Virus record (IMG/VR): IMGVR_UViG_3300036766_001162
Span: 1 to 57,201 of that record
From: a virus
Lineage: Duplodnaviria; Caudoviricetes
DNA: 57,201 bases
Reading direction: 5' to 3' (one strand)
Part shown: positions 1 to 10,242 of the stretch, piece by piece
Numbering within the stretch: position 1 is the first letter of the stretch
Layout of the letters: each line of letters opens with the position of its first letter
Position numbers and translations under genes: made by a program
Notes under the pieces: model-generated
What the model was told of the DNA's origin: nothing
The model's database searches: none
The model's input: the letters and a program-made list of their open reading frames with translations, nothing else

Positions 1-152
1 CCCACGCCGCCGTACATGATATTGTGGGAAAAGGAGGCGTGCTGCATCCCCAGTGCCACCATGGGCGACCCCAGGAATGCGATCATGGGGTCGGGATTGC
101 ACTTCTTGACCCCCGCATTGCAGCTCCCGGTGCAGTCCGCATCACTGAAGCA
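1..152 (+). repeat. Terminal direct repeat copy 1 (probable assembly circularisation overlap)
   Basis: 1-152 equals 57050-57201 except G26 vs T57075. Confidence 0.95.
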
Positions 153-2588
153 GATAGTGCCCCGGGTGGTCGTGCAGGAGGCATCACAGGTCATCCCCCA
201 GTCCGCCCCGAATGGCGCCGAGCCTTTGTTGATGTAGTTACCCACTACCTGGATTCCCGCTCCACCCGCGGCAATGGGGGCGCCCGCCAGCCCCATAAAT
301 CGGTTCCCCGTTATGCTGGTATTCACGAGACCGTCAGTGCGGGTTCCTGTGGAGAATCCTCGCCAGCCGTTGTAGCAGATATTGCCCTCAACCACGTTCC
401 CCGTTGCGAGATTGTCGTCCAGGATACACTCGGGATGGAGCGCGGTGGTGAGCCCGTTCGGATTGGTGATGATGTCGAGCTCGAAGCAGGTATTCAGGGC
501 AATTTTGGATATACCCCCGAAGACGTTATTCTGCCCCAGCCAGATACACGCCTTGCTCGGATGGTAAATGATATTGTCGGCAATCGTGGCCCCGAACGCC
601 GTCTGATCCATCTTGATCCCCGTCTGGAGGGTCTCGACGGCAAGACTCACCACCTGATTGCCCGTAATGACGGCATTGCTATTGCTGGTCAGGATGCCGA
701 CGCCCGTGGCGCCACTGCCCTCAACGTAGTTCGTTTTCAGGTCGGCGTTGGTAGCCTGGGCACTGATCCCAATGCAGCTCCCAGCAATCCCCTTGATGTT
801 GTTCCCCGTCGCATGGTCATTGGCCCCGGACATCAGGATGCCCGTGCAGCCCGTGGCGCCCGTGATGAAGCCAAGCTTGTTCTCGATCGCGGTGGCATCG
901 GTCCCCGTCAGCGCAATGCCCGTGGCGCCCGCGGCGAGATCGAACGCATAGCTCTTCGCCACCATGCCGAAGTTCCCGACGCTATAGCCTTGCGATTCCT
1001 TCCCCGGCCCCGCCGTGGAGCTGGGCCAGATCGTCGATTCGTCGATCCGGGTGTTGGCGCCCCCGATGATGCCCGCCGTGCTTCCGCGGCCCCACACGCG
1101 CAGCAGTTGCGAATCGATCCCCACACTCACGCCATTCGTGACCGCCACCGTGGGTTGCACGTTGGAGGTAGCCGCGTTGAATGCCCCATAGCAGCACTTC
1201 CCGGCATTCGCCGCGAAGCAACTGGAGTTCGCCGGGGTGCCGGGAATTGGCGACGAGCAATCCGTGATCTCGCGGGCAACGTTCGTGTCATAGAGGGTCG
1301 CCTGGTTCTCGGTCTTGATGCCGAAGTCCCCAGTAAAGTGGTCCCAGACATTGACCCCGGCGAAGGTCGCATTGAACGTGCGCGCCAGGTCCACGGCATT
1401 GATGCGTCCAGGGCCGCTGGGTGGCACGATCGTCGCATCGGGGTGGGTGTTCGGCGTCCCACTACACGTCCCCCCGGGCGTCTTGCAGTCCGCGATGCGG
1501 AGACACAGGCTCCCGGTATCCGCCGGCACCGCGGCCCCGAGCGACGCATCCGCCACGTTGTCGGTGAACTGCTGGGTGGTGTTGTCGGATTGCGTGCCCA
1601 CCAGCAACCAGTTACCGGTGTCCCCCGCGATCCGGCGATATACCTTCCGTGATGTCGTGCCCACCGGTCCGAGCGCGATGTTGACCGTGACCTGGCCATG
1701 GGTGCCATCCGTCGTGAGGATACCCGAGGTCGCAGACACCCCTCCCTGCCCGTTGGCATTGTTGAAGGTCACTTTCCACGAATGCGTGCCGTTGGTGATG
1801 TTCCCCGCCGCGGTGATGAGCGCCACGACCGGCGTCGTTGGCACCGCGCCGGCACAATCCGTTTGCGCTTCGCACCGGGCGCCCGGCGTGGCCGCCGCAC
1901 CATCACACTCCTGCCGACAGGGATCGCCCGCGTTCGTGCCGGCGACGCACCGTTGGTAGGGGTCCGACTGATACGTCCAGACGCTGCACCCCTCGAGGAA
2001 GATATCCGAGGACTTTGCGTCCGTGTCCCTCAACATCTCGTACGTCGCGCCGCTGGTGGGTGCGAAGCACGTGGCGGCCGTGCAGGGACTCGTCCCCGCG
2101 ACGCCGAAGGACGACGTACACGTGCCGCCCCCAAGGCATTCCGCCGTCGCCTTACACGCGGCGCCAGGATACGTCCCACCGGAGCAATACTGGCGGAGCG
2201 GGGCAAAGCCCGCAGAGAGGTCTTCGCATTGGATATGCGTGTTGTCCTGCACCGCGAGCGCCGAAAAGATGCAGCAGCTCGGACAGGTCGCGCCGATGCC
2301 GCACCCGTTGGTCTGGTCGGTCGTGTCCAACGTACAGGCGAGCCCGGAGCGGGCGCCGTTGGCGCAGGTGCCGGAGGTCGGGGACGCGAGCGTCGGCACA
2401 CAGCCCGTCGGGAGGAACAGCGTCTTCCCCCCCGCGACGGCGGTACTCAGCGCGGTGTTGGTCTGCGACGTGGCATCGACGGTGCCCGTGCAGTTGGCGT
2501 AGTCGTCCAGCCGGATTTGATGCCGCAGGGGATTCATCCCCGCGGCAATCAAGAGGAGGAGGAGGGCCCCGAGGTTCAGGCGTCGCAT
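1..2588 (-). CDS. N-terminal part of an about 1182-aa Cys-rich, signal-peptide-bearing beta-helix (tailspike/adhesin-like) protein that continues across the junction; absent from the ORF track
   Basis: ATG at 2588 (MRRLNLGALLLLLIAAG...). I read the minus frame codon by codon to base 1 and found no stop. It is in frame with MIAFLGSP at 86, equivalent to 57135. It has CxxGxxxGxxC motifs and ITGN/VEGN beta-helix-type repeats. Confidence 0.85.
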   Translation of the reverse strand, partial: MRRLNLGALLLLLIAAGMNPLRHQIRLDDYANCTGTVDATSQTNTALSTAVAGGKTLFLPTGCVPTLASPTSGTCANGARSGLACTLDTTDQTNGCGIGATCPSCCIFSALAVQDNTHIQCEDLSAGFAPLRQYCSGGTYPGAACKATAECLGGGTCTSSFGVAGTSPCTAATCFAPTSGATYEMLRDTDAKSSDIFLEGCSVWTYQSDPYQRCVAGTNAGDPCRQECDGAAATPGARCEAQTDCAGAVPTTPVVALITAAGNITNGTHSWKVTFNNANGQGGVSATSGILTTDGTHGQVTVNIALGPVGTTSRKVYRRIAGDTGNWLLVGTQSDNTTQQFTDNVADASLGAAVPADTGSLCLRIADCKTPGGTCSGTPNTHPDATIVPPSGPGRINAVDLARTFNATFAGVNVWDHFTGDFGIKTENQATLYDTNVAREITDCSSPIPGTPANSSCFAANAGKCCYGAFNAATSNVQPTVAVTNGVSVGIDSQLLRVWGRGSTAGIIGGANTRIDESTIWPSSTAGPGKESQGYSVGNFGMVAKSYAFDLAAGATGIALTGTDATAIENKLGFITGATGCTGILMSGANDHATGNNIKGIAGSCIGISAQATNADLKTNYVEGSGATGVGILTSNSNAVITGNQVVSLAVETLQTGIKMDQTAFGATIADNIIYHPSKACIWLGQNNVFGGISKIALNTCFELDIITNPNGLTTALHPECILDDNLATGNVVEGNICYNGWRGFSTGTRTDGLVNTSITGNRFMGLAGAPIAAGGAGIQVVGNYINKGSAPFGADWGMTCDASCTTTRGTICFSDADCTGSCNAGVKKCNPDPMIAFLGSPMVALGMQHASFSHNIMYGGV

Positions 2589-2599
2589 GATCCGCTCAG

Positions 2600-2881
2600 T
2601 CATGGAGGGACGGGCATCCCGGGGAGCGCCGGAGTCGGCGTCGCGCCCAGCGCCCCCGCTTCGTCGGCCATGGCCCGCCGACGATCGGCGACCTCGGCAT
2701 CGAAGGCTGTCCCCTCGGCAGCGAGTGCCACGACCGACCGGCCCAGCACCGCGGGCCCAGCACCGAGGTGCGCGCTGATGTTGCAGACCGGCAATATCCA
2801 CGAGCGGGGGAACCAGAGCAGGTAGGCGAGCGCAATCCATCCCGTCCACGCCATGGCGGTAAACGCGCTGCGCCACACCAC
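2600..2881 (-). CDS. Small hypothetical protein with hydrophobic N-terminus
   Basis: GGGAGG RBS before GTG 2881; fits the operon tiling. Confidence 0.5.
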   Translation of the reverse strand: MVWRSAFTAMAWTGWIALAYLLWFPRSWILPVCNISAHLGAGPAVLGRSVVALAAEGTAFDAEVADRRRAMADEAGALGATPTPALPGMPVPP

Positions 2882-2897: not shown

Positions 2898-3311
2898 TTA
2901 GAGGGCGGATTCGAAGCCGCGAATGTCGGATGTACCATCGCTGATCACCCAAATGTCGATCGGTCCGATCGGCAAGATGCCGGTGTCGCCGAGTTGTGCG
3001 AGTTTGACCCCAGTCGCCGCCGTCACGCCTGACGTAAAGCCGAAATAGGCGACACTTCCGCTCGCGTTTTGGATCAAGACGCCGCGGCGGCCCGTCTGCG
3101 GCGTTGTGACAATCTTCGCGGCCGTCGTGGTCGCCGTGAAGTTGAAGCCCACCACGGTCCCGAATGCCGGCGGGCTGGCGGGGTAGGGATGGGTCGCGTC
3201 GGCATCCACGCCATCCGGCGTACGTAGCAGGACGCGCTGGTGCTTGACGCCCCCAATATCCTTGGAGGCGATGACATCGCCGGTAGCCGGGAGGGTATTG
3301 TTGTCTGCCAT
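2898..3311 (-). CDS. Putative virion structural/decoration protein
   Basis: 137 aa, beta-rich (GVLIQNASGSVAYFGF..TGVKL); lies in the late operon. Confidence 0.7.
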   Translation of the reverse strand: MADNNTLPATGDVIASKDIGGVKHQRVLLRTPDGVDADATHPYPASPPAFGTVVGFNFTATTTAAKIVTTPQTGRRGVLIQNASGSVAYFGFTSGVTAATGVKLAQLGDTGILPIGPIDIWVISDGTSDIRGFESAL

Positions 3312-3340
3312 CTCGTCGCCCCGCTCGAGCGATCCCGAGC

Positions 3341-3814
3341 TCAGTCAGCGGTGAAGGCGAGTTGCCCGATCGCAAAGCTGAACGTGACCCCGCTCAGGAC
3401 GACGACGCCCACGGCCCCGTTGACCGTGCCGGCCATCAGGAGGTTCCCGGCGGACGACGCATCATAGAGCCCGCACCACTTGATGGCCGCGCCGCCGAAC
3501 CAGTCGGCCGATGCTTGCGGGAACGTCACCGCGAGCTTATTGGTGACTCCCCACGCCGTGCCGCTGACCGCCGAGATGTTCCAGCTCACGGCGTTGCCCG
3601 ACGCATCGTCGGCGTCCTTTGCCATGGCGACGCGCGCGTAGGAGCCACCGCTCAGCTCGCCAGCGCTCACGTCGGCCGGATCGGTCGAGTGCAGCGACAC
3701 CCACAGGTTCGTGGGGCCGGTGGCGGCGAGCGCCGTGGCCGCGGCACCGTCCTTATTGGTCTTGAAGAGCCACTGGATTAGGCGCGTCTCGAAATAGGTA
3801 CTGAAGCCTGCCAT
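3341..3814 (-). CDS. Conserved phage structural protein (family often annotated as tail fibre/Gp80-like)
   Basis: Motifs LWVSLHSTDP..GELSGGSYARV, VTFPQASADW, GLYDASSAGNLL; GAGGAGG RBS. Confidence 0.75.
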   Translation of the reverse strand: MAGFSTYFETRLIQWLFKTNKDGAAATALAATGPTNLWVSLHSTDPADVSAGELSGGSYARVAMAKDADDASGNAVSWNISAVSGTAWGVTNKLAVTFPQASADWFGGAAIKWCGLYDASSAGNLLMAGTVNGAVGVVVLSGVTFSFAIGQLAFTAD

Positions 3815-3817
3815 AGG

Positions 3818-6800
3818 TCACCCCTCCTCCGCGTTCTTGTCAGATAGCACCAGCAAAAGATCGCATACGCAGCGCGGATGCGCTGTCGGCGCGTCGTCAC
3901 CACTCGGGAATGCCGCGTCGATCGGCACGACGCCGGCCGCGGCATTCGAGTCGCAGTTGCTCGTTACGACGTTCTCGGCTATAAAGAAGCCAGCATCTGC
4001 CGTCAGGTTGAACACCTCGCAGGAGGCCATCCGATGAGCCGTCATCATCACCCGCTCGAACCCGGCGTCATGCGGCGCGTAACCCGCCTTTATCTGCGCG
4101 AGCAGCGTTCGCTTCTGGACGTTGCCGCCGCGACCGGCCTCACATACACGCGCATCCGGAACGCACTCCTGCGCGCGGGATATCCGCTGCGTGGCCGCAC
4201 GGAGGCGGCGAGCCATGTCGTCGCCGCTGCCAAACGCCGAGAGTCGATGATGGCGCGCTATCAGGCCGGCCAGCCACTCGCGAAGATAGCGCAAGCCCTT
4301 GGCCTCACGAGGAGGAATGTGGTGCATCACCTCAGCCAAGCGGGTATCGACCTGCGCCAGCGCCCGGCCATTGCGACCAGCGAATTGCACCGCCTGTACT
4401 TCGATCGCGGCATGTCCGCGCAAGCAATCGGCATGCGGGTGGGAATCTCTGCTGTTACCGTGGGCCAACGTCTTCGCCGCGCGGGCTATACTCTCCGTTC
4501 CAACAGCGATGCCCTCGCACGCTGGTATCAGGGGGTCACCAAGGCCGAGCGCCTCAATCGCCTGCGCGCCGCGCACGCCGAGACGCCGAAGGCCCGCGAG
4601 CGCCGCGGCAATTTCGGTTCGGATACGGAACGCCGTCTCTACGAGTTGATCGCAGATCACGGACGCTTCGCCGTGCAGAAGGCCGTGGGCCGTTACAGTG
4701 TGGACATGGCTACCGATACCGTCGCCGTGGAAATCGCCGGCGGACGTTGGACGGGTCGCCGTTCGTCCCGTAAACGCACCGACTACCTCCTCCAGTCGGG
4801 CTTCCACGTGATCGAAATCGTATGCAGTGCCCAGAGCCGATTTCAGCCAAGTGCCGCTGAGCAGGTAATCGCCTTCCTTCAGGAGGTGAAGCGGCTTCCA
4901 CCCGGCATCCGTGAGCACCGGATGGTTCGGGGTTCCGGTCAGCCGATGACCACTCGACAGGTCCACATCGACTACCGTCCCGCGGTAGTGTCGGCGGAAG
5001 GTGCGATGTAGCGCGCCCGTCGAGACGCGCATGTCGCCGATCAGGCATTCATCGTCCGTGTCGTGCTCACTCCCGAGGACCCATTCCTTGCCCGCGACCT
5101 CGCCGCTGGCCTTCCAGGTCTCGAGGTTGCCGCGGACGAGCGCGTTGCTGATCTCGGTCCGCGCAATCAGCGCGGCCCGCTCGTCGCTGAAGGCGTACGA
5201 GTCCGCCAGCGCGGTCGCGAGATCGGCCTTGCTCCACTGCTCCGCAAAGGCCTCCGCGATCGTGCCGCGCAGGAGTTCGCGGGTGCCATCTGTGATCGCG
5301 TAGGCCGCGTTCGGGTTCTCGCCCACGCTCCCGTCGGGGAGCGTCCGCATGCCGACGAGTTCGGCGGCGCGCGCGTTTGCTGCCGCGACGATCGCGGCAT
5401 TCGGGAGCGCGAAGTCGGCCGCGGTCGGCACCGCCAGGGTGAGCGTCGCCAATGCCTGCGTGGCCCCGCGCTGCCCGATGTCCCCGAGGAGCTGCGCTGT
5501 GGGATCGATCAGAACCGTGAAGCCCGCCATGTCGACGGCGGCCAGCACCTGGTCGACGATGTCCGCAGGCTCGTCCTTCCGCAGCGCGACGCCCACGCCC
5601 TTCGCCAGGTACGGCGCCGCCGCCGCGAGGACCGCCGCCTGCACCGTGACGAAGGCTCCGCGGACACGCTTCGCCAGGGCGCGCTCGGCCTTCTGCACCG
5701 GCGCGGTCGCGCGGGCCGCACCGGCCAGCAACTTCCGCTTCGCGCGGGGGAGGCTGGCGATCGTGACGCGCACCGGGGCTCGCACCGGGGCTCGCTTCGC
5801 CGCGGGCCGCGCGTTCGCCTTGGGCTCCGGCGTCGGCGGCGCGGCCGCGGCGGGCGGCTTCCCACCCCTCGGCGGAGGCGTCCCGCCGTCGGGCGGTGCC
5901 TCGGGTGGTAGCGGCTTCCCATCTGGCCCGAGAACGACCGGGACCACCGGGACCACCGGCTCGGGCGGATTCAGGATGTCGGCCAGCCGCACGGCGCCGT
6001 TGGCCCCACCGTAGATCAGGGCCTGGTCGCCATCCGGGACCGGGTCGAGGCTCTTCGTCTGCCGGACCTCGTTGATCGTGAGGACGCCGAGCTTCAGGTA
6101 CCGCTCGTCGAGCTCGCTCTGTGTCCTCGCATCCGGCGTCCGGGCATCGTCGAAGAAGAAGCCGAGGTCGGTGAAGCCGAAGTCGTGGTGGATGACGTCG
6201 TACGTCATGAGGTCCTGGAAGAACCCCATCAGCGGCAGCGTGCCCTCCTCGAGGGCGACGTCCTGCATAATCTCGCCTGTCGCGCGATTAGTCTGCTTGA
6301 TGAATGCCGTGGGAGGTATATCGAAAGCAAAGCAGATTTTCCGCAGCAGCCACTCGTCGAACTCGTCTTTCAGCGGCGGCAGGCGCGTCTCGTGGAGCGT
6401 GACGCCGGCGCCCCCTGGCACGAACTTGACCTTGCGGCGCTCCTCGGTGCCGCCCTCGAAGAAGCTCGCCCACTTCTGCGCGAACTGCTCGACCTGCGGG
6501 GCGCTCCACCCTTCGGGGAGCGTGACGATCATGTCGGGGATATTGCCCGCCGAGTAGTACTCAAGCTGGGACGTCACGCGGCGGAGCGCCAGGTTGATCG
6601 TGACGAGGATCTGCTCTGTGGGCCCGAACCCGTAAGCGTGCGTGCTCCGCGGATTCCGGGGCCGATAGATCAGCTCGTCCGCCGTGAAATCCGTCGTCGG
6701 CATGCCCTTGATGATCTGGCGGTAGGCCGTTCCGCTGTCGGGCCGGTTCCCGCGTTCGTCGAGCACGGGACGAATGGTGCCGCCGTCGAAGATCTCGAGC

Positions 6801-7309
6801 GCGTAGAGGCCGCCGGCGCGGGTCGGACGCCGGAAGATCGTGAGCGCGTCGACCACCAGCACTTCCTCGAGCGCCTTCCGCAGCCACGTGTTCCACGGCA
6901 GCACGCGGTCGGGCACGCGGAGCAGCGCTTCCACCTGCTGCACTCGCGCATCTCCGGGCTGCACCTTCGCCCGCGGATCGAGGGGCCGCACCGACCAGCC
7001 GAAGCGCGCCATGCGCGACTTGACCGTCTCGATCACGATGCGGACGGAGTCGGAGCCGTCGGCCAGCGCCCGCAGCATCGGGAAGCCGGTCAGCTCCTCG
7101 CCGCGCGGCGTGGTGCGCAGGTTGAAGCCGCTCGGGTAGTCCCAGGAGCGCGCGGGCACCGTGATCGGCGCCACGACCGGTGGTAGCGACCCGGGGCCGA
7201 ACCAGCCGGTCAGTCGCTCATAGACCCGCTGCGCCACCGAGCGGCGGGTATCCGCCGAGGCGGCGACAAGGGTCGGGTCGATCGGCGTGCCCGACAGGCG
7301 GGACGCCAT
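3818..7309 (-). CDS. Portal protein fused to a MuF-like minor head protein, intein-containing (1163-aa precursor, about 799 aa spliced)
   Basis: Portal motifs (YGFGPTEQI, YYSAGNIP, ICFAFDIPP, GVLTINEVR), a Pro-rich linker, and MuF motifs (RAALIARTE, KEWV, FPSG..PTAHPRCVC). Confidence 0.9.
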   Translation of the reverse strand: MASRLSGTPIDPTLVAASADTRRSVAQRVYERLTGWFGPGSLPPVVAPITVPARSWDYPSGFNLRTTPRGEELTGFPMLRALADGSDSVRIVIETVKSRMARFGWSVRPLDPRAKVQPGDARVQQVEALLRVPDRVLPWNTWLRKALEEVLVVDALTIFRRPTRAGGLYALEIFDGGTIRPVLDERGNRPDSGTAYRQIIKGMPTTDFTADELIYRPRNPRSTHAYGFGPTEQILVTINLALRRVTSQLEYYSAGNIPDMIVTLPEGWSAPQVEQFAQKWASFFEGGTEERRKVKFVPGGAGVTLHETRLPPLKDEFDEWLLRKICFAFDIPPTAFIKQTNRATGEIMQDVALEEGTLPLMGFFQDLMTYDVIHHDFGFTDLGFFFDDARTPDARTQSELDERYLKLGVLTINEVRQTKSLDPVPDGDQALIYGGANGAVRLADILNPPEPVVPVVPVVLGPDGKPLPPEAPPDGGTPPPRGGKPPAAAAPPTPEPKANARPAAKRAPVRAPVRVTIASLPRAKRKLLAGAARATAPVQKAERALAKRVRGAFVTVQAAVLAAAAPYLAKGVGVALRKDEPADIVDQVLAAVDMAGFTVLIDPTAQLLGDIGQRGATQALATLTLAVPTAADFALPNAAIVAAANARAAELVGMRTLPDGSVGENPNAAYAITDGTRELLRGTIAEAFAEQWSKADLATALADSYAFSDERAALIARTEISNALVRGNLETWKASGEVAGKEWVLGSEHDTDDECLIGDMRVSTGALHRTFRRHYRGTVVDVDLSSGHRLTGTPNHPVLTDAGWKPLHLLKEGDYLLSGTWLKSALGTAYDFDHVEARLEEVVGAFTGRTATRPTSAGDFHGDGIGSHVHTVTAHGLLHGEASVICDQLVETAFRIRTEIAAALAGLRRLGVRGAQAIEALGLGDPLIPACEGIAVGTESIARAAKTLAHGNSRDSHPHADCLRGHAAIEVQAVQFAGRNGRALAQVDTRLAEVMHHIPPREAKGLRYLREWLAGLIARHHRLSAFGSGDDMARRLRAATQRISRAQECVPDARVCEAGRGGNVQKRTLLAQIKAGYAPHDAGFERVMMTAHRMASCEVFNLTADAGFFIAENVVTSNCDSNAAAGVVPIDAAFPSGDDAPTAHPRCVCDLLLVLSDKNAEEG
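3957..3985 (+). promoter_or_regulatory. Candidate sigma70-type promoter for the antisense nuclease gene
   Basis: TTGCTC (3957-3962), 17-nt spacer, TATAAA (3980-3985), about 50 nt upstream of ATG 4034. Confidence 0.55.
4034..5011 (+). CDS. Antisense intein-internal protein with 3x HTH and a Vsr/DUF559-like PD-(D/E)XK nuclease domain; putative homing endonuclease (325 aa)
   Basis: AGGAGG at 4021-4026, 7 nt before ATG. Three HTH repeats end in AG(Y/I)xLR. The C-terminal domain reads SDTERRLY..QKAVGRYSVDMATDTVAVEIAGGRW..RTDYLLQSGFHVIEI. Confidence 0.85.
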   Translation: MSRHHHPLEPGVMRRVTRLYLREQRSLLDVAAATGLTYTRIRNALLRAGYPLRGRTEAASHVVAAAKRRESMMARYQAGQPLAKIAQALGLTRRNVVHHLSQAGIDLRQRPAIATSELHRLYFDRGMSAQAIGMRVGISAVTVGQRLRRAGYTLRSNSDALARWYQGVTKAERLNRLRAAHAETPKARERRGNFGSDTERRLYELIADHGRFAVQKAVGRYSVDMATDTVAVEIAGGRWTGRRSSRKRTDYLLQSGFHVIEIVCSAQSRFQPSAAEQVIAFLQEVKRLPPGIREHRMVRGSGQPMTTRQVHIDYRPAVVSAEGAM

Positions 7310-7435
7310 CTAGGCTCGCGTGGGCGAGCGAAGACGCGCTCGCTCCGATCTAAGGCTCCGCACCACCGTGATCGTCTCCGCTCGCCCACCGTCGAACAGG
7401 AGGGAGGCGAATCCGAGCCATCACGCATGGACGCT

Positions 7436-7457
7436 TGCAGCCAGACTGCGGGGGTTG
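7436..7457 (-). promoter_or_regulatory. 22-bp motif copy 1 upstream of the portal gene (candidate late promoter/operator)
   Basis: TGCAGCCAGACTGCGGGGGTTG (+ strand), identical to 52518-52539. Confidence 0.6.
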
Positions 7458-7467
7458 TTCCGGAGGC

Positions 7468-7863
7468 TCAGGAGAGCGCCCCGTCGCCCGCGAAGATCGC
7501 GATGCGGCGGACGACGAGATTCTTCGGGTGGTCGTTCTGGCGGTTGCCGTCCAGGCGGATGACGCGCTCGTTCCCCGCCAGCGGGCGCCCGAGGCGCCCT
7601 TCCATGGTGATGCGCGCCAGGGACTTGTAGCCGAGCTGGTCGGCCCCGGGCACGCCGATGCCAACCAGGACGTAGTGATAGCCGCCCCGCAGGATGGTCG
7701 TTGGGGTGGTGGCGCGCCGGTGCTTGGCGTGCGCGCGCTGGCACGCGCGCGAGCAGGTGGGGGCCGCGGCCTTCACCTGCGCCGCCCGCCGGCCGATGGG
7801 GCCGCCGCAGAAGGCGCACGGACGGCGCTCGAGCGCCGGGAGGAAGCGCGCACGGGTGGACAC
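7468..7863 (-). CDS. Zn-finger plus degenerate HNH-like protein
   Basis: CAFC..CSRAC, then GYKSLARITMEGRLGRPL..ERVIRLDGNRQNDHPKNL: an HNH scaffold lacking the His residues. Confidence 0.7.
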   Translation of the reverse strand: MSTRARFLPALERRPCAFCGGPIGRRAAQVKAAAPTCSRACQRAHAKHRRATTPTTILRGGYHYVLVGIGVPGADQLGYKSLARITMEGRLGRPLAGNERVIRLDGNRQNDHPKNLVVRRIAIFAGDGALS

Positions 7864-8091
7864 GGTCAGGAGGAGCCCCGGGCGGCGTGGAGGTTATCCC
7901 ACCAACGAGAGAACTCGCGTATCTGGCCCTCCGTCCAGGGCTCCCTCGACTCCGGGATTGGGATGCCCCCTGCCGGAACAGTCGTGGCCCGGCGCCATCG
8001 CGTATCCTCCGCTTCGACAAAGCGCTGCGTCATGCCAGCAGCCAGCAGGGCGGCCACTGCCCCCGTCACCGCAGCACCGACAGCGCGGGCA

Positions 8092-8379
8092 CTAGATGCC
8101 CCACAGCGTCGGCCGCACGATCTGCTGCCGCTCCGCCTCCCGCTGGGCCGCGGCGGCGAAGAATCCCCGCAGCATCGTCCGGCCCTGTTCGTCGAGCAGC
8201 ATCGCCACGGCCGCACGCTGCATCGCCCCGATCCCTGGGGACTCCAGCACGTCGAACTGCGCCGAGTTGGGGCTGGCGAATCGGACCAGGAGCCAGGGCT
8301 GGCCTTCCTCGACCGGGGGCAGCTCCTGCACCGCCGGCTTGTCCGTGGGCAGCTTCCCGTTGATCTGTTCGTCGCTCAT
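8092..8379 (-). CDS. Hypothetical protein
   Basis: MSDEQINGKL...; ATGA coupling with the upstream gene. Confidence 0.55.
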   Translation of the reverse strand: MSDEQINGKLPTDKPAVQELPPVEEGQPWLLVRFASPNSAQFDVLESPGIGAMQRAAVAMLLDEQGRTMLRGFFAAAAQREAERQQIVRPTLWGI

Positions 8380-8627
8380 GCGTGCCTCCGTGAGATGAGA
8401 CGCCGCCACCAGGGCCGCGCCTGTTCGTGGTACTCGACGGCCGCGTCGACATGGGCGCGGAGCGCCACCGCCTCGGCGCCCGTGATGGGCACGAGGACGG
8501 TGCGGGTGCGGCTGCTCTTCAGCACGCGGAAGAGCCGGACGCCGGCGGGCGTCTCAACGGGGCAGTAGCTGCCCTCGGGGAGGTAGGGCTTCGGGGCAGT
8601 GCGGTCCGTGGCCATCATCGTGTGCAC
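8376..8627 (-). CDS. Hypothetical protein
   Basis: Tiles between terL and portal; start uncertain. Confidence 0.5.
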   Translation of the reverse strand: MHTMMATDRTAPKPYLPEGSYCPVETPAGVRLFRVLKSSRTRTVLVPITGAEAVALRAHVDAAVEYHEQARPWWRRLISRRHA

Positions 8628-8806
8628 CGCTGCTCGCCCTTGCCTTGCGGGAGTCGCAGGCCCACGCGGCCACCGGAGAGGAGCGCCGCCACCGCAACGG
8701 GCCCGACGTGCTCGAGACAGATCGGGCGACTCGTCGGGTCGTCCTCATCATCGAGCACGAGCTGGGCCCGCTTCGGGCAGGTCCCCATTCGGCGATCGTC
8801 GCTCAT
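8615..8806 (-). CDS. Hypothetical protein
   Basis: ATG at 8806 overlaps the terL stop (ATGA). Confidence 0.5.
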   Translation of the reverse strand: MSDDRRMGTCPKRAQLVLDDEDDPTSRPICLEHVGPVAVAALLSGGRVGLRLPQGKGEQRCTR

Positions 8807-10242
8807 GCTACTGCATCCTCCTTCGGCGCCTGCGCCGCCACCTTCGCGTCGAGCCAGCCCATGAGCCCGTGGTCCGTGGTCGCGAACGCGAGCATCATCG
8901 CCTCGGCGCGGTCTGGGCTTTTCACACCCCGCTTCTGCGCCTCCTCCTTGCTCTCGATCTCCATCTGGCCACGCGCGTTGTGGCGGTACCGGAGCCCGGC
9001 CAGCTGACTGACGGCGCGCTGGCTCCCGACGCCCGAGACGGCGCCGTCCTTGAAGCGCTGGCGGAGGCCGTCGTAGAGCTCGGCCTTCAGGTTCTTGTAG
9101 CGCTCCGAGTTCCGCGGGGCCTCGCCGACGTTGATGAACTCGACCGGGAAGCCCAGGTCCTCCAGGTGGCGGGCCAGGTAGTAGCCGATCCCCGCGCTGT
9201 CGACCTTCACCGAGCGGAGTCGCGGCTTGAACGGCGTCAGCGTCGCCACGATCTCGCCCCGCGGGTCCTGATTCGGCCAGGCCCGCTCGAGCAGCACGCG
9301 CGGCCCCTCGACCAGGTCGAGTACCGTCTCGTCTTCCCCGGGGCCCGCGACATCGATGCCCGCGTCGAGGGGGCCGCCGCCATCGGTGATGTCCCGCGCC
9401 TGCGCCGCCTCGAGCCAGGCGAGGCTGATGAGCGCGTCCTCGCTCTGCGCCGGGAACGATCCCAGGACGCGCGCCTCCCAGAGCGGGTGACCCGGCCCCC
9501 ACTCGGAGTGCTTCTCCTTCACCCACCGGCGCGTCGTCAGGTAGGGACGCACGTTCGTGTCGAGCGCCTCCTCCGGCATCCCGAGGATGTCCTCGAGCGT
9601 CAGCCCGGCCAGGTTCGGCGTGTCGAACGCGCCGATGGTGAACGGCGCCCAGCCGTCGCGGTTGTCGGTGAAGGCGTCATGAAACGGCCCGCTCGCAATC
9701 GTCGGATTCCCGAGGGCCAGGATTCGCACGTCGCCGCCGGCGCGCGCGCCTTCGATGGCCTCCCAGATGTCCGGCTTCACGCCGGGCGCCTCGTCGAGGA
9801 TGACCAGGATGTGGTTGCCGTGGAAGCCCTGGAACCGCACGCCCTCGTTGGTCGACAGGCCGATGGCGTAGTTCCCGGGGCCGAGCTTCAGCTCCGTGGT
9901 GTTGGCCTTCGGGTAGGCGATCCGCGCGCTCGCGATCGCCTTGTGGATCTCGCCCCAGAGCAGAAGCTCCACCTGCGTCCACGTGGGTGCCGTCGTAACG
10001 ACGATGCCGTCGTCGAAGCGCGTCACCCACCAGAGCGCCGCCAGGGCGGCGACCATGGTCTTGCCGCTGGCGTGGCAGGCCTTCACGGCGGTACGCGGGC
10101 GCGTCGCCACGGAGCGGAGGATGGCTTCCTGCGTGGCCCACAGGTCTTGCTGTAGAAACGTCTGAGCAAAGGCCACCGGATCCATCAGGCATTCGACGGC
10201 CTGGCCCTCCAGCCGTTCGCGATCGTCTCCCGCCGCGTTCAT
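8803..10242 (-). CDS. terL: Terminase large subunit
   Basis: Walker A ACHASGKT, Walker B ILVILDEA, LGNP, and an RNase H-like domain (GIDVAGPGEDET...SPDRAEA). Confidence 0.95.
   Translation of the reverse strand: MNAAGDDRERLEGQAVECLMDPVAFAQTFLQQDLWATQEAILRSVATRPRTAVKACHASGKTMVAALAALWWVTRFDDGIVVTTAPTWTQVELLLWGEIHKAIASARIAYPKANTTELKLGPGNYAIGLSTNEGVRFQGFHGNHILVILDEAPGVKPDIWEAIEGARAGGDVRILALGNPTIASGPFHDAFTDNRDGWAPFTIGAFDTPNLAGLTLEDILGMPEEALDTNVRPYLTTRRWVKEKHSEWGPGHPLWEARVLGSFPAQSEDALISLAWLEAAQARDITDGGGPLDAGIDVAGPGEDETVLDLVEGPRVLLERAWPNQDPRGEIVATLTPFKPRLRSVKVDSAGIGYYLARHLEDLGFPVEFINVGEAPRNSERYKNLKAELYDGLRQRFKDGAVSGVGSQRAVSQLAGLRYRHNARGQMEIESKEEAQKRGVKSPDRAEAMMLAFATTDHGLMGWLDAKVAAQAPKEDAVA

What the first reader, a model, noticed from the sequence alone, without database searches (positions are those of the whole stretch)
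3956..5047. Intein whose putative homing endonuclease is encoded on the opposite strand, as a separate gene nested inside it
Seen: the intein has splicing blocks (C1 at 5047, TPNH, terminal SN/C at 3956), but its roughly 250-aa middle shows no LAGLIDADG, HNH or GIY-YIG motif. The complementary strand, in codon register, is open from 4034 to 5011 and lies wholly within the intein. It encodes three HTH repeats (RLYLREQRSLLDVAAATG..RAGYPLR; ARYQAGQPLAKIAQALG..QAGIDLR; RLYFDRGMSAQAIGMRVG..RAGYTLR) and a nuclease-like domain (VDMATDTVAVEIAGGRW..RTDYLLQSGFHVIEI). The intein-strand word DFHG is the reverse complement of the nuclease word AVEI (4724-4735). Known: intein homing endonucleases are normally in frame between the splicing blocks, and Vsr-like (EDxHD) nucleases serve as homing enzymes. 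Inference: this is a two-strand mobile element in which the sense frame only has to stay open and splice, while the antisense gene supplies homing activity independently of late-gene expression. Caveat: the usual ExDGxxWH motif reads EIAGGRWT here, so activity is not assured. I cannot confirm novelty without a literature search.
Basis: partly seen in the sequence, partly recalled or inferred. Interest (0 to 1): 0.95.

Follow-up and report, generated by a model that had tools for sequence, protein, structure and literature searches.

The report
Intein with opposite-strand homing endonuclease gene
A phage head-assembly gene carries a self-splicing intein whose homing-endonuclease-like gene sits inside it on the opposite DNA strand; the arrangement is real and evolutionarily conserved, but a 2025 preprint has already described this kind of element.

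Summary
The minus-strand portal-MuF gene (3818-7309) carries an intein (3956-5047). The plus strand holds a 325-codon ORF (4034-5011) in codon register, with AGGAGG 7 nt before its ATG.

ORF length alone means nothing in this 68% GC window. The other evidence is strong:
- **Domains:** the plus ORF has HTH domains above Pfam cut-offs and a DUF559/Vsr-like nuclease domain.
- **Structure:** AlphaFold2 gives mean pLDDT 88.8. In the intein frame only the HINT halves fold; the middle scores 30-60.
- **Conservation:** in 80 of 80 related viral contigs (GC 0.40-0.74) the homolog lies inside an intein-bearing ORF on the other strand, in the same register.
- **Selection:** in 7 of 7 independent pairs, substitutions in the intein middle fall at the endonuclease wobble position. 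dN/dS is 0.14-0.56 in the endonuclease frame and 0.76-1.13 in the intein frame.
- **Mobility:** intein DNA is far less diverged than its exteins in four pairs, and intein-free alleles exist.

A bioRxiv preprint (10.1101/2025.01.02.630785) already reports anti-sense VSR-like endonucleases inside full inteins of actinobacteriophages. This is therefore a new member of a known kind.

This copy has Thr where 57 of 63 relatives have the presumed general-base His, so its activity is uncertain.

The parts
3818..7309 (-). Host gene: portal-MuF (head morphogenesis) fusion precursor, 1163 aa including the intein
   Evidence: ORF. Pfam Phage_portal 5.5e-14; PHROG 2662 portal 7e-79 over residues 52-755; PHROG 2468 head morphogenesis 5e-11; Phage_Mu_F only 16.6 bits, below cut-off.
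3956..5047 (-). Intein, 364 aa: Cys1, TPNH block B, terminal Ser-Asn, followed by +1 Cys at 3953-3955
   Evidence: The AlphaFold2 model matches intein splicing domains in PDB (2imz 8.4e-4; many inteins at probability 0.97-1.00).
4844..5047 (-). N-terminal HINT sub-domain (intein residues about 1-68, blocks A, B and N4)
   Evidence: pLDDT 92-98. Against L085, intein-frame identity is 0.56 and antisense-frame identity 0.32; nt differences at host codon positions 1,2,3 are 23,14,43.
3956..4069 (-). C-terminal HINT sub-domain (last 38 residues, blocks F and G: ..CEVFNLTADAGFFIAENVVTSN)
   Evidence: pLDDT 94-98. Intein-frame identity 0.47 against antisense-frame 0.29 versus L085.
4070..4843 (-). 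Intein middle in the sense frame: kept open but apparently not selected as protein (a 'shadow' of the plus-strand gene)
   Evidence: pLDDT mostly 30-70. The sense-frame alignment shows no conservation there except mirror images of nuclease motifs. dN/dS in relatives is 0.76-1.13.
4021..4026 (+). Shine-Dalgarno-like AGGAGG, 7 nt before the ATG of the plus ORF
   Evidence: Read directly. In relatives, 41 of 55 conserved starts have an SD-like word, against 23 of 395 control antisense start codons.
4034..5011 (+). Homing-endonuclease-like gene, 325 aa plus stop, nested antisense in codon register
   Evidence: Conserved in 80 of 80 loci.
4061..4480 (+). Three helix-turn-helix modules (residues about 10-47, 66-102, 115-149)
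   Evidence: Pfam Sigma70_r4 and Sigma70_r4_2 (two stretches each) and HTH_10; helices in the model; 2lvs tandem HTH 1.3e-6. The closest relative L085 and P0004/P0005 have only one module.
4622..4888 (+). Vsr/DUF559-like nuclease domain (residues about 197-285). Asp224 = 4703-4705, Glu233 = 4730-4732, Thr240 (His in 57 of 63 relatives) = 4751-4753
   Evidence: DUF559 19.8 bits; 3hrl 1.4e-6, 3r3p 0.016; Foldseek 3hrl probability 0.96, TM 0.58; column counts. HEN-frame identity 0.77 against intein-frame 0.52 versus L085.
4889..5008 (+). C-terminal tail of the plus ORF, read antisense to the N-terminal HINT sub-domain; function unresolved
   Evidence: A beta hairpin at residues 294-309 is predicted (pLDDT 84-92), then disorder. 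The tail evolves as a mirror of the intein frame.

Best explanation
This is a composite mobile element in a phage portal-MuF gene.

On the gene's own (minus) strand, a class-1-type intein is translated with the host protein. Its two HINT halves (about 68 N-terminal and 38 C-terminal residues) are presumed to splice it out. The roughly 260 residues between them act only as an open, tolerated linker.

On the plus strand, in the same codon register, sits a separate gene with its own Shine-Dalgarno sequence and ATG. It encodes three HTH DNA-binding modules followed by a Vsr/DUF559-like (EDxHD-type) nuclease.

By analogy with I-Bth0305I and with the anti-sense VSR-like intein endonucleases of actinophages, this protein is expected to recognise and cut intein-less alleles at or near the ...DDE|CD... 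junction. Repair would then copy intein plus endonuclease gene into the cut allele (homing).

Shown here:
- both reading frames and their domains;
- cross-phylum conservation of the nested arrangement;
- a switch of purifying selection from the intein frame (HINT halves) to the endonuclease frame (middle);
- intein/extein divergence discordance, and intein-free alleles.

Inferred: splicing, expression of the plus gene, cleavage, and the exact target.

The window's lineage has replaced the presumed general-base His (Thr240). I rate an active nuclease in this particular copy at only about 0.5-0.6.
For: Domains and folds:
- Pfam HTH families above cut-off, and DUF559 at 19.8 against a 20.6-bit cut-off.
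- PHROG matches to the DNA-binding parts of phage 'HNH endonuclease' families, 1.3e-11 and 4.6e-10.
- A profile of 63 family members hits 3hrl at 1.4e-6, 2lvs at 1.3e-6, 3r3p at 0.016 and Vsr 1cw0 at 0.48.
- AlphaFold2 gives mean pLDDT 88.8 for the plus product against 66.9 for the intein frame, where the middle scores 30-60.
- The intein model matches intein splicing domains only.
- BFVD gives 42 viral look-alikes at E<=1e-3, several named endonuclease, DNA mismatch endonuclease or DUF559.

Conservation:
- tblastn of the plus product finds 73 phage records. The 30 rows listed are annotated head morphogenesis, minor capsid or MuF-like, mis-named ADP-ribosyltransferase, or hypothetical protein.
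- In the records listed by both searches (for example PST-H1 and vB_StyS-sam) the intein match lies at the same place on the other strand.
- 272-, 272- and 371-codon antisense frames are open in Salmonella phage vB_StyS-sam (locus GC 0.49), E. coli phage Snoke (0.51) and Gordonia phage Malisha.
- In IMG/VR, 301 of 385 candidate stretches encode a relative. In 80 of 80 kept loci the match lies inside a longer opposite-strand ORF in register 0.

Selection:
- In 7 independent pairs, middle-zone differences at intein codon positions 1,2,3 are 439,197,268, against 378,302,575 in exteins (chi-square p 7e-19). Position 1 exceeds position 3 in 7 of 7 pairs.
- NG86 dN/dS in the middle is 0.14-0.56 in the endonuclease frame and 0.76-1.13 in the intein frame.
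- Window versus its closest relative L085: the nuclease zone is 0.77 identical in the endonuclease frame and 0.52 in the intein frame. The reverse holds in the HINT halves.

Initiation:
- AGGAGG lies 7 nt before the ATG.
- In 55 of 65 non-duplicate relatives the ATG or GTG is exactly antisense to the block-F His codon. 41 of those 55 have an SD-like word, against 23 of 395 controls.

Mobility:
- Intein-middle against extein divergence is 0.052 vs 0.314 (L001/L002r), 0.006 vs 0.15 (L026/L028), 0.092 vs 0.204 (L052/L070) and 0 vs 0.037 (L024/L025).
- Among 9 host-protein homologs, 3 carry the intein at the window's site, 1 at a second site about 30 residues downstream, and 5 have none.
Against: - No direct evidence of transcription, translation, cleavage or splicing. 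No RNA run is available and no sigma-70-like promoter was found in 3300-5600.
- The window lacks two family-conserved nuclease positions: Thr240 (His in 57 of 63) and Gln254 (Asp or Asn in 61 of 63). The His corresponds to the general base of Vsr and I-Bth0305I.
- DUF559 is just under its Pfam cut-off. 3r3p is only 0.016. Foldseek of the whole plus-ORF model against PDB gave no hit at E<=0.001.
- The related loci were found by similarity to the plus product, and one of the two search patterns lies in the tail that mirrors intein block B. Loci with decayed endonuclease genes or free-standing relatives are therefore under-sampled.
- The 80 loci share ancestry, so '80 of 80 in register' is not 80 independent events.
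- NG86 is not designed for overlapping frames.
- Two of the 7 extein comparisons (L018/L025, L034/L056) are too diverged to show a codon-position signal.
Confidence: 0.85

Rival explanations
1. The endonuclease gene is real by descent, but this copy (and its small clade) is catalytically dead or decaying. The intein would then be vertically inherited and immobile, with the plus ORF open only because of 68% GC.
For: Thr240 replaces the near-invariant His, and Gln254 the Asp/Asn. L085 has Asp240 and Lys254, P0004 has Asn240, P0005 has Asp240. The open frame is not significant at this GC.
Against: Between the window and L085, the nuclease zone is 0.77 identical in the endonuclease frame against 0.52 in the intein frame, with differences at the endonuclease wobble position (29,10,14). 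So the domain is still under purifying selection in this clade. L085 keeps the frame open at GC 0.57. A strong SD is retained. Salmonella and E. coli phage copies also lack the His (Ala) yet show 5% intein against 31% extein divergence.
Confidence: 0.2
2. The plus-strand protein is expressed but has a job other than homing, for example a DNA-binding regulator or a nuclease acting on host or competitor DNA. It would merely be lodged in the intein.
For: Its best Pfam hits are sigma-70 region 4-type HTH domains. PHROG also lists 'transcriptional regulator, D5-like' at 1.8e-8. The general-base His is missing.
Against: It is always found inside inteins among the loci recovered (80 of 80; the 30 phage rows listed are MuF-type or hypothetical genes). 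The HTH-plus-Vsr-like architecture matches I-Bth0305I-type homing enzymes. Intein/extein discordance fits homing.
Confidence: 0.07
3. The plus ORF is a chance 'shadow' ORF of a GC-rich gene, and the intein simply has a degenerate in-frame endonuclease domain.
For: In-register antisense frames are commonly open at 68% GC. Other 282-518 aa antisense ORFs occur nearby.
Against: Control shadow ORFs give no domains. The frame stays open in relatives at GC 0.40-0.51. Selection acts on the plus frame. The plus product folds confidently and the sense-frame middle does not.
Confidence: 0.02
4. Both strands encode functional protein over the whole overlap (full dual coding); the intein middle would be a novel domain.
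For: The sense frame must stay open. Some sense-frame motifs (EDFHGDG, IEDV) are conserved.
Against: Those motifs are exact mirrors of the nuclease motifs VAVEV and RTxYILD. Sense-frame dN/dS is about 1 and pLDDT is 30-60. The intein-frame model matched intein splicing domains and nothing else of note.
Confidence: 0.03

Closest known systems
Anti-sense VSR-like homing endonucleases inside full inteins of actinobacteriophages (Gosselin, Arsenault and Gogarten, bioRxiv 10.1101/2025.01.02.630785, version of 2025-10-20). I read the abstract, sections 8 and 15, and search passages; supplements are closed.
   Same: A full, unsplit intein in a phage gene. The in-frame middle has no recognisable structure. 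A VSR-like (possibly EDxHD; they report HHpred 3R3P at 4.6e-5) endonuclease ORF lies on the anti-sense strand, with a helical extension not present in Vsr. The proposed origin is invasion of an intein by a free-standing endonuclease gene. The window's plus product matches Gordonia phages Malisha and Vivi2, which are actinophages.
   Different: The preprint surveys PhagesDB only; 'Salmonella' and 'metagenom' occur 0 times in its text. [quoted passage not shown] Here the family is found in Salmonella, Escherichia, Cronobacter, Pantoea and Idiomarinaceae phages and in 301 IMG/VR stretches. The ORF overlaps both splicing halves. The window sits at a different MuF site and has three HTH modules. 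I could not see which host proteins carry their VSR-like cases, because figure 3E and the supplements are not held.
I-Bth0305I and the EDxHD / Vsr-like homing endonuclease family (PMC3239194 and PMC2677866; passages read)
   Same: A bipartite enzyme: N-terminal repeated small DNA-binding modules with a putative HTH, then a C-terminal Vsr-fold nuclease. The window and its family keep equivalents of Glu (E199), the Mg-binding Asp (D224) and the extra acidic residue at the Vsr Phe62 position (E233).
   Different: Those enzymes are encoded in group I introns, between split-intein halves, or free-standing. They lie on the same strand as the host gene in the 'fractured gene' loci. Profile similarity to 3r3p is weak (0.016). 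The window lacks the general-base His.
Anti-sense LAGLIDADG ORFs in inteins (Synechocystis DnaX; Gorbalenya 1998, Gogarten 2002). Known to me only as cited in the preprint; the 1998 paper is not in the library.
   Same: The endonuclease gene lies on the strand opposite to the intein, nested within it.
   Different: A different nuclease family (LAGLIDADG) and different host genes.
DUF559 / 'endonuclease-like protein' NGO0050 (PDB 3hrl)
   Same: The best solved-structure relative of the nuclease domain: profile 1.4e-6 over about 100 residues; Foldseek probability 0.96, TM 0.58.
   Different: 3hrl is a stand-alone 104-residue bacterial protein with no HTH modules and no link to an intein. The window scores just under the Pfam DUF559 cut-off.

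Membership tests
Intein (HINT splicing domain, class 1) | N-terminal Cys/Ser nucleophile | tested here: met
   Cys1 at 5045-5047.
Intein (HINT splicing domain, class 1) | Block B TxxH | tested here: met
   TPNH at intein residues 39-42. T39, N41 and H42 are invariant or nearly so in 56 sequences.
Intein (HINT splicing domain, class 1) | C-terminal Asn followed by Cys/Ser/Thr | tested here: met
   ...VVTSN|C. The penultimate residue is Ser rather than His, as in many relatives (..VSNC).
Intein (HINT splicing domain, class 1) | HINT fold / family profile | tested here: met
   The Pfam Intein_splicing hit is below cut-off (28.9 against 35.8 bits). But the model has pLDDT 92-98 in both halves and matches intein splicing domains (2imz 8.4e-4; dozens of inteins at probability 0.95-1.00).
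Intein (HINT splicing domain, class 1) | Protein splicing demonstrated | not testable with these tools
   Needs an expression and splicing assay.
EDxHD / Vsr-like homing endonucleases (I-Bth0305I type) | Mg-binding Asp (Vsr D51 / I-Bth0305I D196) and N-terminal Glu (E25 / E170) | tested here: met
   D224 in 63 of 63 and E199 in 61 of 63 family members; both present in the window. Residue roles are taken from PMC3239194. The correspondence is by motif alignment and is my inference.
EDxHD / Vsr-like homing endonucleases (I-Bth0305I type) | General-base His (Vsr H69 / H213) | tested here: not met
   The window has Thr240; 57 of 63 relatives have His.
EDxHD / Vsr-like homing endonucleases (I-Bth0305I type) | Second Asp (Vsr D97 / D222) | tested here: inconclusive
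   The candidate column 254 is Asp or Asn in 61 of 63 and Gln in the window. Its equivalence to D97 was not established.
EDxHD / Vsr-like homing endonucleases (I-Bth0305I type) | Vsr-type fold / sequence relationship to 3r3p and 1cw0 | tested here: inconclusive
   Profile against 3r3p 0.016 and 1cw0 0.48. The clear hit is to DUF559-like 3hrl at 1.4e-6.
EDxHD / Vsr-like homing endonucleases (I-Bth0305I type) | Site-specific cleavage at the insertion site | not testable with these tools
   Needs an in vitro cleavage assay.
Pfam DUF559 (PF04480) | Score at or above the gathering cut-off | tested here: not met
   19.8 bits against a 20.6 cut-off, E 7.2e-4, residues 187-261. It is a near miss, and the family profile supports the relationship through 3hrl.
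Intein with anti-sense VSR-like endonuclease (Gosselin et al. 2025) | Unsplit intein with both splicing halves in one host ORF | tested here: met
Intein with anti-sense VSR-like endonuclease (Gosselin et al. 2025) | Endonuclease ORF on the opposite strand, within the intein | tested here: met
   4034-5011 (+) lies inside 3956-5047 (-). The same holds in 80 of 80 relatives.
Intein with anti-sense VSR-like endonuclease (Gosselin et al. 2025) | Homology to their actinophage examples | tested here: inconclusive
   tblastn hits Gordonia phages Malisha (2e-17) and Vivi2 (3e-7) inside MuF-like genes. Their list of phages is in supplements I could not open, and 'Malisha' and 'Vivi2' occur 0 times in the main text.

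The most novel reading that the evidence does not exclude
The element may be one ancient, very widespread lineage of truly two-stranded coding rather than a rare actinophage curiosity.

- Overprinted start: the endonuclease's translation start is written onto the intein's splicing blocks. The ATG or GTG is the antisense of the block-F His codon in 55 of 65 relatives, and the SD is the antisense of the following 'NL' codons.
- Overprinted tail: its last roughly 55 codons are written onto intein blocks A-B and stay open even at 40% GC.
- Spread: the lineage occurs in phages of Actinobacteria and Proteobacteria and in many uncultured viruses (1,884 protein clusters at E<=1e-30), at two or more sites of MuF.
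- This clade: the window's clade has exchanged the general-base His yet stays under purifying selection. That implies an altered catalytic mechanism or a non-cleaving role.
Probability: 0.35. Interest if true: 0.6.

Novelty: new member of a known kind. Interest (0 to 1): 0.4.

Why it matters
Inteins with an endonuclease gene on the other strand support the 'splicing first, endonuclease invades later' view of intein origins. They are also natural cases where one DNA stretch must satisfy two reading frames.

This window adds an instance from outside the cultured actinophages. It lies at a second insertion site of the MuF domain, has an expanded three-HTH DNA-binding arm, and has a variant active site.

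The follow-up shows three further things:
- The family is common in metagenomic viruses and in well-studied enterobacterial phages (Jerseyvirus, Kagunavirus), where it can be tested at the bench.
- Annotation pipelines miss it. In the three phage records inspected, the nested gene is unannotated in two (Snoke, Malisha) and only partly called as a 134-aa hypothetical protein in the third (vB_StyS-sam).
- The boundary between intein-frame and endonuclease-frame selection can be mapped to within a few codons.

None of this changes the basic concept, which is already in a preprint.

Tried and rejected
**Searches that gave nothing**
- Single-protein locus scans with P0002 found no relatives in genome contigs (300 pattern stretches, 0 confirmed) or viral contigs (21 stretches, 0 confirmed). 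Only the alignment-based scan worked.
- The search for homologous proteins with P0002 gave just 3 proteins.
- The promoter scan of 3300-5600 found 0 sigma-70-like sites, so I make no promoter claim.
- No RNA holder was listed for window 3900-5100. The one DNA run is probably the source sample.

**Weak or inconclusive results**
- Foldseek of the whole plus-ORF model against PDB gave no match at E<=0.001. I rely on the profile search and treat 3hrl and 2lvs at probability 0.96 as supportive only.
- The 45-aa C-extein alone gave no Pfam family, and the N-extein gave MuF at 16 bits, below cut-off. The host is called portal-MuF mainly from PHROGs and from homologs carrying PF04233.
- The listing of cluster members on 8 clusters showed only unnamed Logan proteins. 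Nine of the 10 listed members have a longest contig of 993-7,525 b; the tenth is 116,449 b.

**Tools and papers not available**
- Gorbalenya 1998 is not in the paper library. I cite it only through the preprint.
- Supplements of the preprint were not requested because they are closed. They may list the phages and host proteins of the VSR-like cases.

**Steps considered and left out**
- I considered building the spliced extein to test the MuF profile across the junction. I left it out because it would be a joined sequence.
- Complex prediction was not used; no binding claim is made.

**Readings considered and rejected:** chance shadow ORF, and full dual coding (see the rival explanations).


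Full report
**What is in the window**

The minus strand carries a 1163-aa ORF (3818..7309). It is a portal protein fused to a MuF-like head-morphogenesis region:
- Pfam Phage_portal 5.5e-14;
- PHROG 2662 portal 7e-79 over residues 52-755;
- PHROG 2468 head morphogenesis 5e-11;
- Pfam Phage_Mu_F only 16.6 bits, below its cut-off.

A 364-aa intein (3956..5047) interrupts it. The intein has Cys1, TPNH, a terminal Ser-Asn and a +1 Cys.

The plus strand is open from ATG 4034 to TAG 5009-5011 (325 aa). It shares the intein's codon register and lies entirely within it. AGGAGG (4021-4026) sits 7 nt before the ATG. The window is a virus record, estimated 72% complete.

**Is it more than chance?**

Not on length alone. 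At 68% GC the codons that would create an in-register antisense stop (TTA, CTA, TCA) are 2 of 774 in the exteins of this gene. Long antisense ORFs abound nearby.

Three such control ORFs gave no Pfam family at E<=0.1, apart from one 13-bit sub-threshold hit. The 4034 ORF, in contrast, gives:
- Sigma70_r4 (32.3 bits, cut-off 24.1), Sigma70_r4_2 (29.8, cut-off 25.7) and HTH_10 (24.8, cut-off 23.1);
- DUF559 just under its cut-off (19.8 against 20.6) at residues 187-261;
- PHROG matches to the DNA-binding parts of phage endonuclease families.

**Relatives**

tblastn of the plus product against 50,697 phage records hit 73 records. They are Salmonella Jerseyvirus-type phages, Escherichia, Shigella, Cronobacter, Pantoea, Idiomarinaceae and Gordonia phages. 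The 30 rows listed are annotated as head morphogenesis, minor capsid or MuF-like protein, mis-named ADP-ribosyltransferase, or hypothetical protein. In the records listed by both searches, such as PST-H1 and vB_StyS-sam, the intein-frame match lies at the same place on the other strand.

Three phages were inspected directly:
- In Salmonella phage vB_StyS-sam (locus GC 0.49) and E. coli phage Snoke (0.51), the frame opposite the intein is open for 272 codons. It reads as an HTH module plus a nuclease (..VAVEVFGGGW..). Snoke's intein is annotated in the record.
- In Gordonia phage Malisha the frame is open for 371 codons (..VAVEVLGGNWH..).

An alignment-based scan of IMG/VR found 385 candidate stretches, of which 301 encode a relative; 80 loci were kept. 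In 80 of 80 the match lies wholly inside a longer ORF on the opposite strand, in codon register 0. In 79 of 80 there is no stop in the match (L032 has one). Locus GC ranges from 0.40 to 0.74.

In the AT-richest loci the extein rate of antisense-stop codons is high, yet the frame stays open. L081 has 17 of 350 such codons with 318 codons open. L077 has 32 of 566 with 316 open.

A profile of 63 members, searched against 1.84 billion representative proteins, gave 39,629 hits at E<=0.001, 10,407 at 1e-10 and 1,884 at 1e-30. The weakest tier surely includes generic HTH and DUF559 proteins. The eight clusters I looked up hold unnamed proteins, mostly from 1-7.5 kb Logan contigs. They do not show whether copies are nested or free-standing.

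**Which strand is under selection?**

I aligned DNA without reference to frame and counted differences by codon position. In register, intein position 1 is the endonuclease wobble position. Seven independent pairs were analysed.

| Zone | Differences at intein positions 1,2,3 |
|---|---|
| Intein middle | 439, 197, 268 |
| Exteins | 378, 302, 575 |
| Overlap of endonuclease tail with N-terminal HINT half | 77, 18, 95 |

The middle against extein contrast gives chi-square p 7e-19. Position 1 exceeds position 3 in the middle in 7 of 7 pairs. Position 3 exceeds position 1 in the exteins in 5 of 7; the other two pairs are too diverged to align well.

NG86 dN/dS:

| Zone | Endonuclease frame | Intein frame |
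|---|---|---|
| Middle | 0.14-0.56 | 0.76-1.13 |
| Overlap with the N-terminal HINT half | 0.34-0.80 | 0.09-0.42 |

NG86 is not built for overlapping genes, so I take the contrast rather than the values.

The window's own clade shows the same switch. Its closest DNA relative is L085, a 1082-aa portal-MuF ORF at GC 0.57 with the intein at the same site. Amino-acid identity by zone:

| Zone | Intein frame | Endonuclease frame |
|---|---|---|
| N-terminal HINT | 0.56 | 0.32 |
| Nuclease zone | 0.52 | 0.77 |
| Rest of the middle | 0.30 | 0.47 |
| C-terminal HINT | 0.47 | 0.29 |

**Structure**

With a 63-sequence alignment, AlphaFold2 models the plus product at mean pLDDT 88.8 and pTM 0.64. The model has three three-helix modules, an alpha/beta nuclease domain (residues 197-285), a beta hairpin (294-309) and a disordered end.

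The intein frame, with 56 sequences, gives mean pLDDT 66.9. Residues 1-70 score 92-98 and residues 330-364 score 94-98. Most of 170-320 scores 30-60. That model matches intein splicing domains (Mtu RecA mini-intein 2imz 8.4e-4, many others at probability 0.95-1.00) and no endonuclease domain of its own. The only endonuclease-bearing entries are whole inteins such as PI-PfuI, at probability 0.63.

The endonuclease family profile hits 3hrl 'endonuclease-like protein' at 1.4e-6, the tandem-HTH protein 2lvs at 1.3e-6, 3r3p (I-Bth0305I) at 0.016 and Vsr 1cw0 at 0.48. Foldseek of the whole model gave nothing at E<=0.001 in PDB, though 3hrl and 2lvs reach probability 0.96. In BFVD it gave 42 viral look-alikes at E<=1e-3, several named endonuclease, DNA mismatch endonuclease or DUF559.

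**Anatomy of the overlap**

The conserved sense-frame words in the intein 'middle' (EDFHGDG, IEDV) are mirror images of the nuclease motifs VAVEV and RTxYILD. They are not intein blocks.

The endonuclease ORF overlaps both splicing halves:
- **Start.** In 55 of 65 non-duplicate relatives with a recognisable C-terminal boundary, its start is exactly the antisense of the block-F His codon in GHVYNL, 20 codons before the terminal Asn (ATG in 44, GTG in 11). 41 of those 55 have an SD-like word 4-16 nt upstream, against 23 of 395 control antisense start codons.
- **The window's start.** The window is one of the 10 exceptions. Block F reads CEVFNL, and the start has moved 18 nt to the antisense of the His in TAHRMAS.
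- **Stop.** The stop always falls within about 13 codons of Cys1. The last roughly 55 codons are therefore read against blocks A-B. There the intein frame dominates selection. Whether the predicted hairpin is functional is open; its confidence may come from covariation imposed by the intein.

**Mobility**

Intein middles are far less diverged than the adjoining exteins in four pairs: 0.052 against 0.314, 0.006 against 0.15, 0.092 against 0.204, and 0 against 0.037. This is the classic sign of recent transfer.

Most relatives sit at the MuF motif HP(N/Q/R)|C(R/K)C. The window, L085, P0159 and P0160 sit about 30 residues upstream at ..DDE|CD...

Nine host homologs were aligned:
- three carry the intein at the window's site;
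- one (P0161) carries it at the HPQ|C site;
- five have no insert. P0162 reads ..DDQADEC-DGFAEQG.., which gives the empty target.

**Active site**

According to the I-Bth0305I paper, the EDxHD residues are Glu170, the Mg-binding Asp196 (Vsr D51), an extra acidic residue at the Vsr Phe62 position, the general-base His213 (Vsr H69) and Asp222 (Vsr D97) (passages read).

In the family alignment E199 (61 of 63), D224 (63 of 63), E233 (63 of 63) and R248 (63 of 63) are kept. H240 is kept in 57 of 63 and D/N254 in 61 of 63. The window has Thr240 and Gln254. Its clade also lacks the His: L085 has Asp, P0004 has Asn, P0005 has Asp. The Salmonella and E. coli copies have Ala.

This clade's nuclease zone is still under purifying selection. 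The His-less enterobacterial copies also show the homing signature. I therefore think an altered rather than dead enzyme is somewhat more likely, but this needs a bench test.

**What is known**

A bioRxiv preprint by Gosselin, Arsenault and Gogarten (10.1101/2025.01.02.630785, version of 2025-10-20) surveyed PhagesDB. I read the abstract, sections 8 and 15, and search passages. It reports:
- an in-frame middle that makes no recognisable structure;
- an HHpred match of the antisense product to 3R3P (4.6e-5);
- a helical extension not seen in Vsr;
- a proposed origin by invasion of an intein by a free-standing endonuclease gene.

It also cites anti-sense LAGLIDADG ORFs in inteins from 1998 and 2002. 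It states that minor-capsid inteins were exclusively non-canonical.

Its text does not mention Salmonella or metagenomes, and it contains no per-strand selection test that I could find. My other searches were: intein + homing endonuclease + opposite strand; intein + antisense + free-standing + phage + endonuclease; intein + anti-sense + VSR; and intein + head morphogenesis + Salmonella phage. They found no further description.

**Verdict**

The architecture is not new. The window is a new member of a known kind, with some local peculiarities: a second MuF site, three HTH modules and a variant active site.

The broader picture found here may go beyond the preprint. It comprises spread beyond actinophages, overprinting of the endonuclease start and tail on the splicing blocks, and frame-specific selection mapped along the element. 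It is incremental rather than categorical.

Noticed in passing
L058, L077, L079/L080, L081 (intein N-termini; IMG/VR loci): These relatives begin the intein with Ala instead of Cys (..NGR|AEVEGN....RGK|AELPGN..). In L058, L079 and L081 the printed C-terminal part still ends ..SHN|C; the C-terminus of L077 was not resolved. Sister loci L053, L068, L072 and L083 have ..NGR|CLAPG... This suggests Ala1-type (non-class-1) splicing variants within the same family.
   Followed up: partly
P0161 versus P0003, P0159, P0160 (host homologs): Within one portal-MuF protein family the homologous intein occupies two sites about 30 residues apart..DDE|CD.. and ..HPQ|CRC... Each lies just before a conserved Cys. 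Five homologs have no intein. This looks like a case of insertion-site switching within one domain.
   Followed up: partly
window 6185-7186 (+), 5063-5911 (+), 7435-8568 (+), 8599-10155 (+): Long plus-strand ORFs lie antisense to minus-strand genes. The three tested have no Pfam family at E<=0.1, apart from one 13-bit sub-threshold hit. They are ordinary GC-rich shadow ORFs and served as a negative control for the finding.
   Followed up: yes
window 3-2876 (-): A 958-aa ORF runs off the window end. It is rich in Gly, Thr, Ala and Cys, with repeated 'G..I.G.N' type stretches, and may be a tail fibre or beta-helix protein. It was not analysed.
   Followed up: no
L002 (E. coli phage Snoke, MK931441) 1693-2322: The record's 'intein' mat_peptide spans 630 nt (210 aa), while its own note speaks of a 273-residue intein from Cys244 to Cys516. 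The 272-codon opposite-strand frame (1504-2322) is not annotated.
   Followed up: no
L043 (IMG/VR locus), intein N-terminal region: About 45 extra residues are inserted between block A and the first long beta strand of the HINT domain, relative to all other aligned inteins.
   Followed up: no
L001 versus L002; L026 versus L028: The intein plus endonuclease DNA is 95% and 99.4% identical, while the adjoining MuF extein is only about 69% and 85% identical. This suggests recent transfer between distinct phages (Salmonella Jerseyvirus and E. coli Kagunavirus in the first pair).
   Followed up: partly
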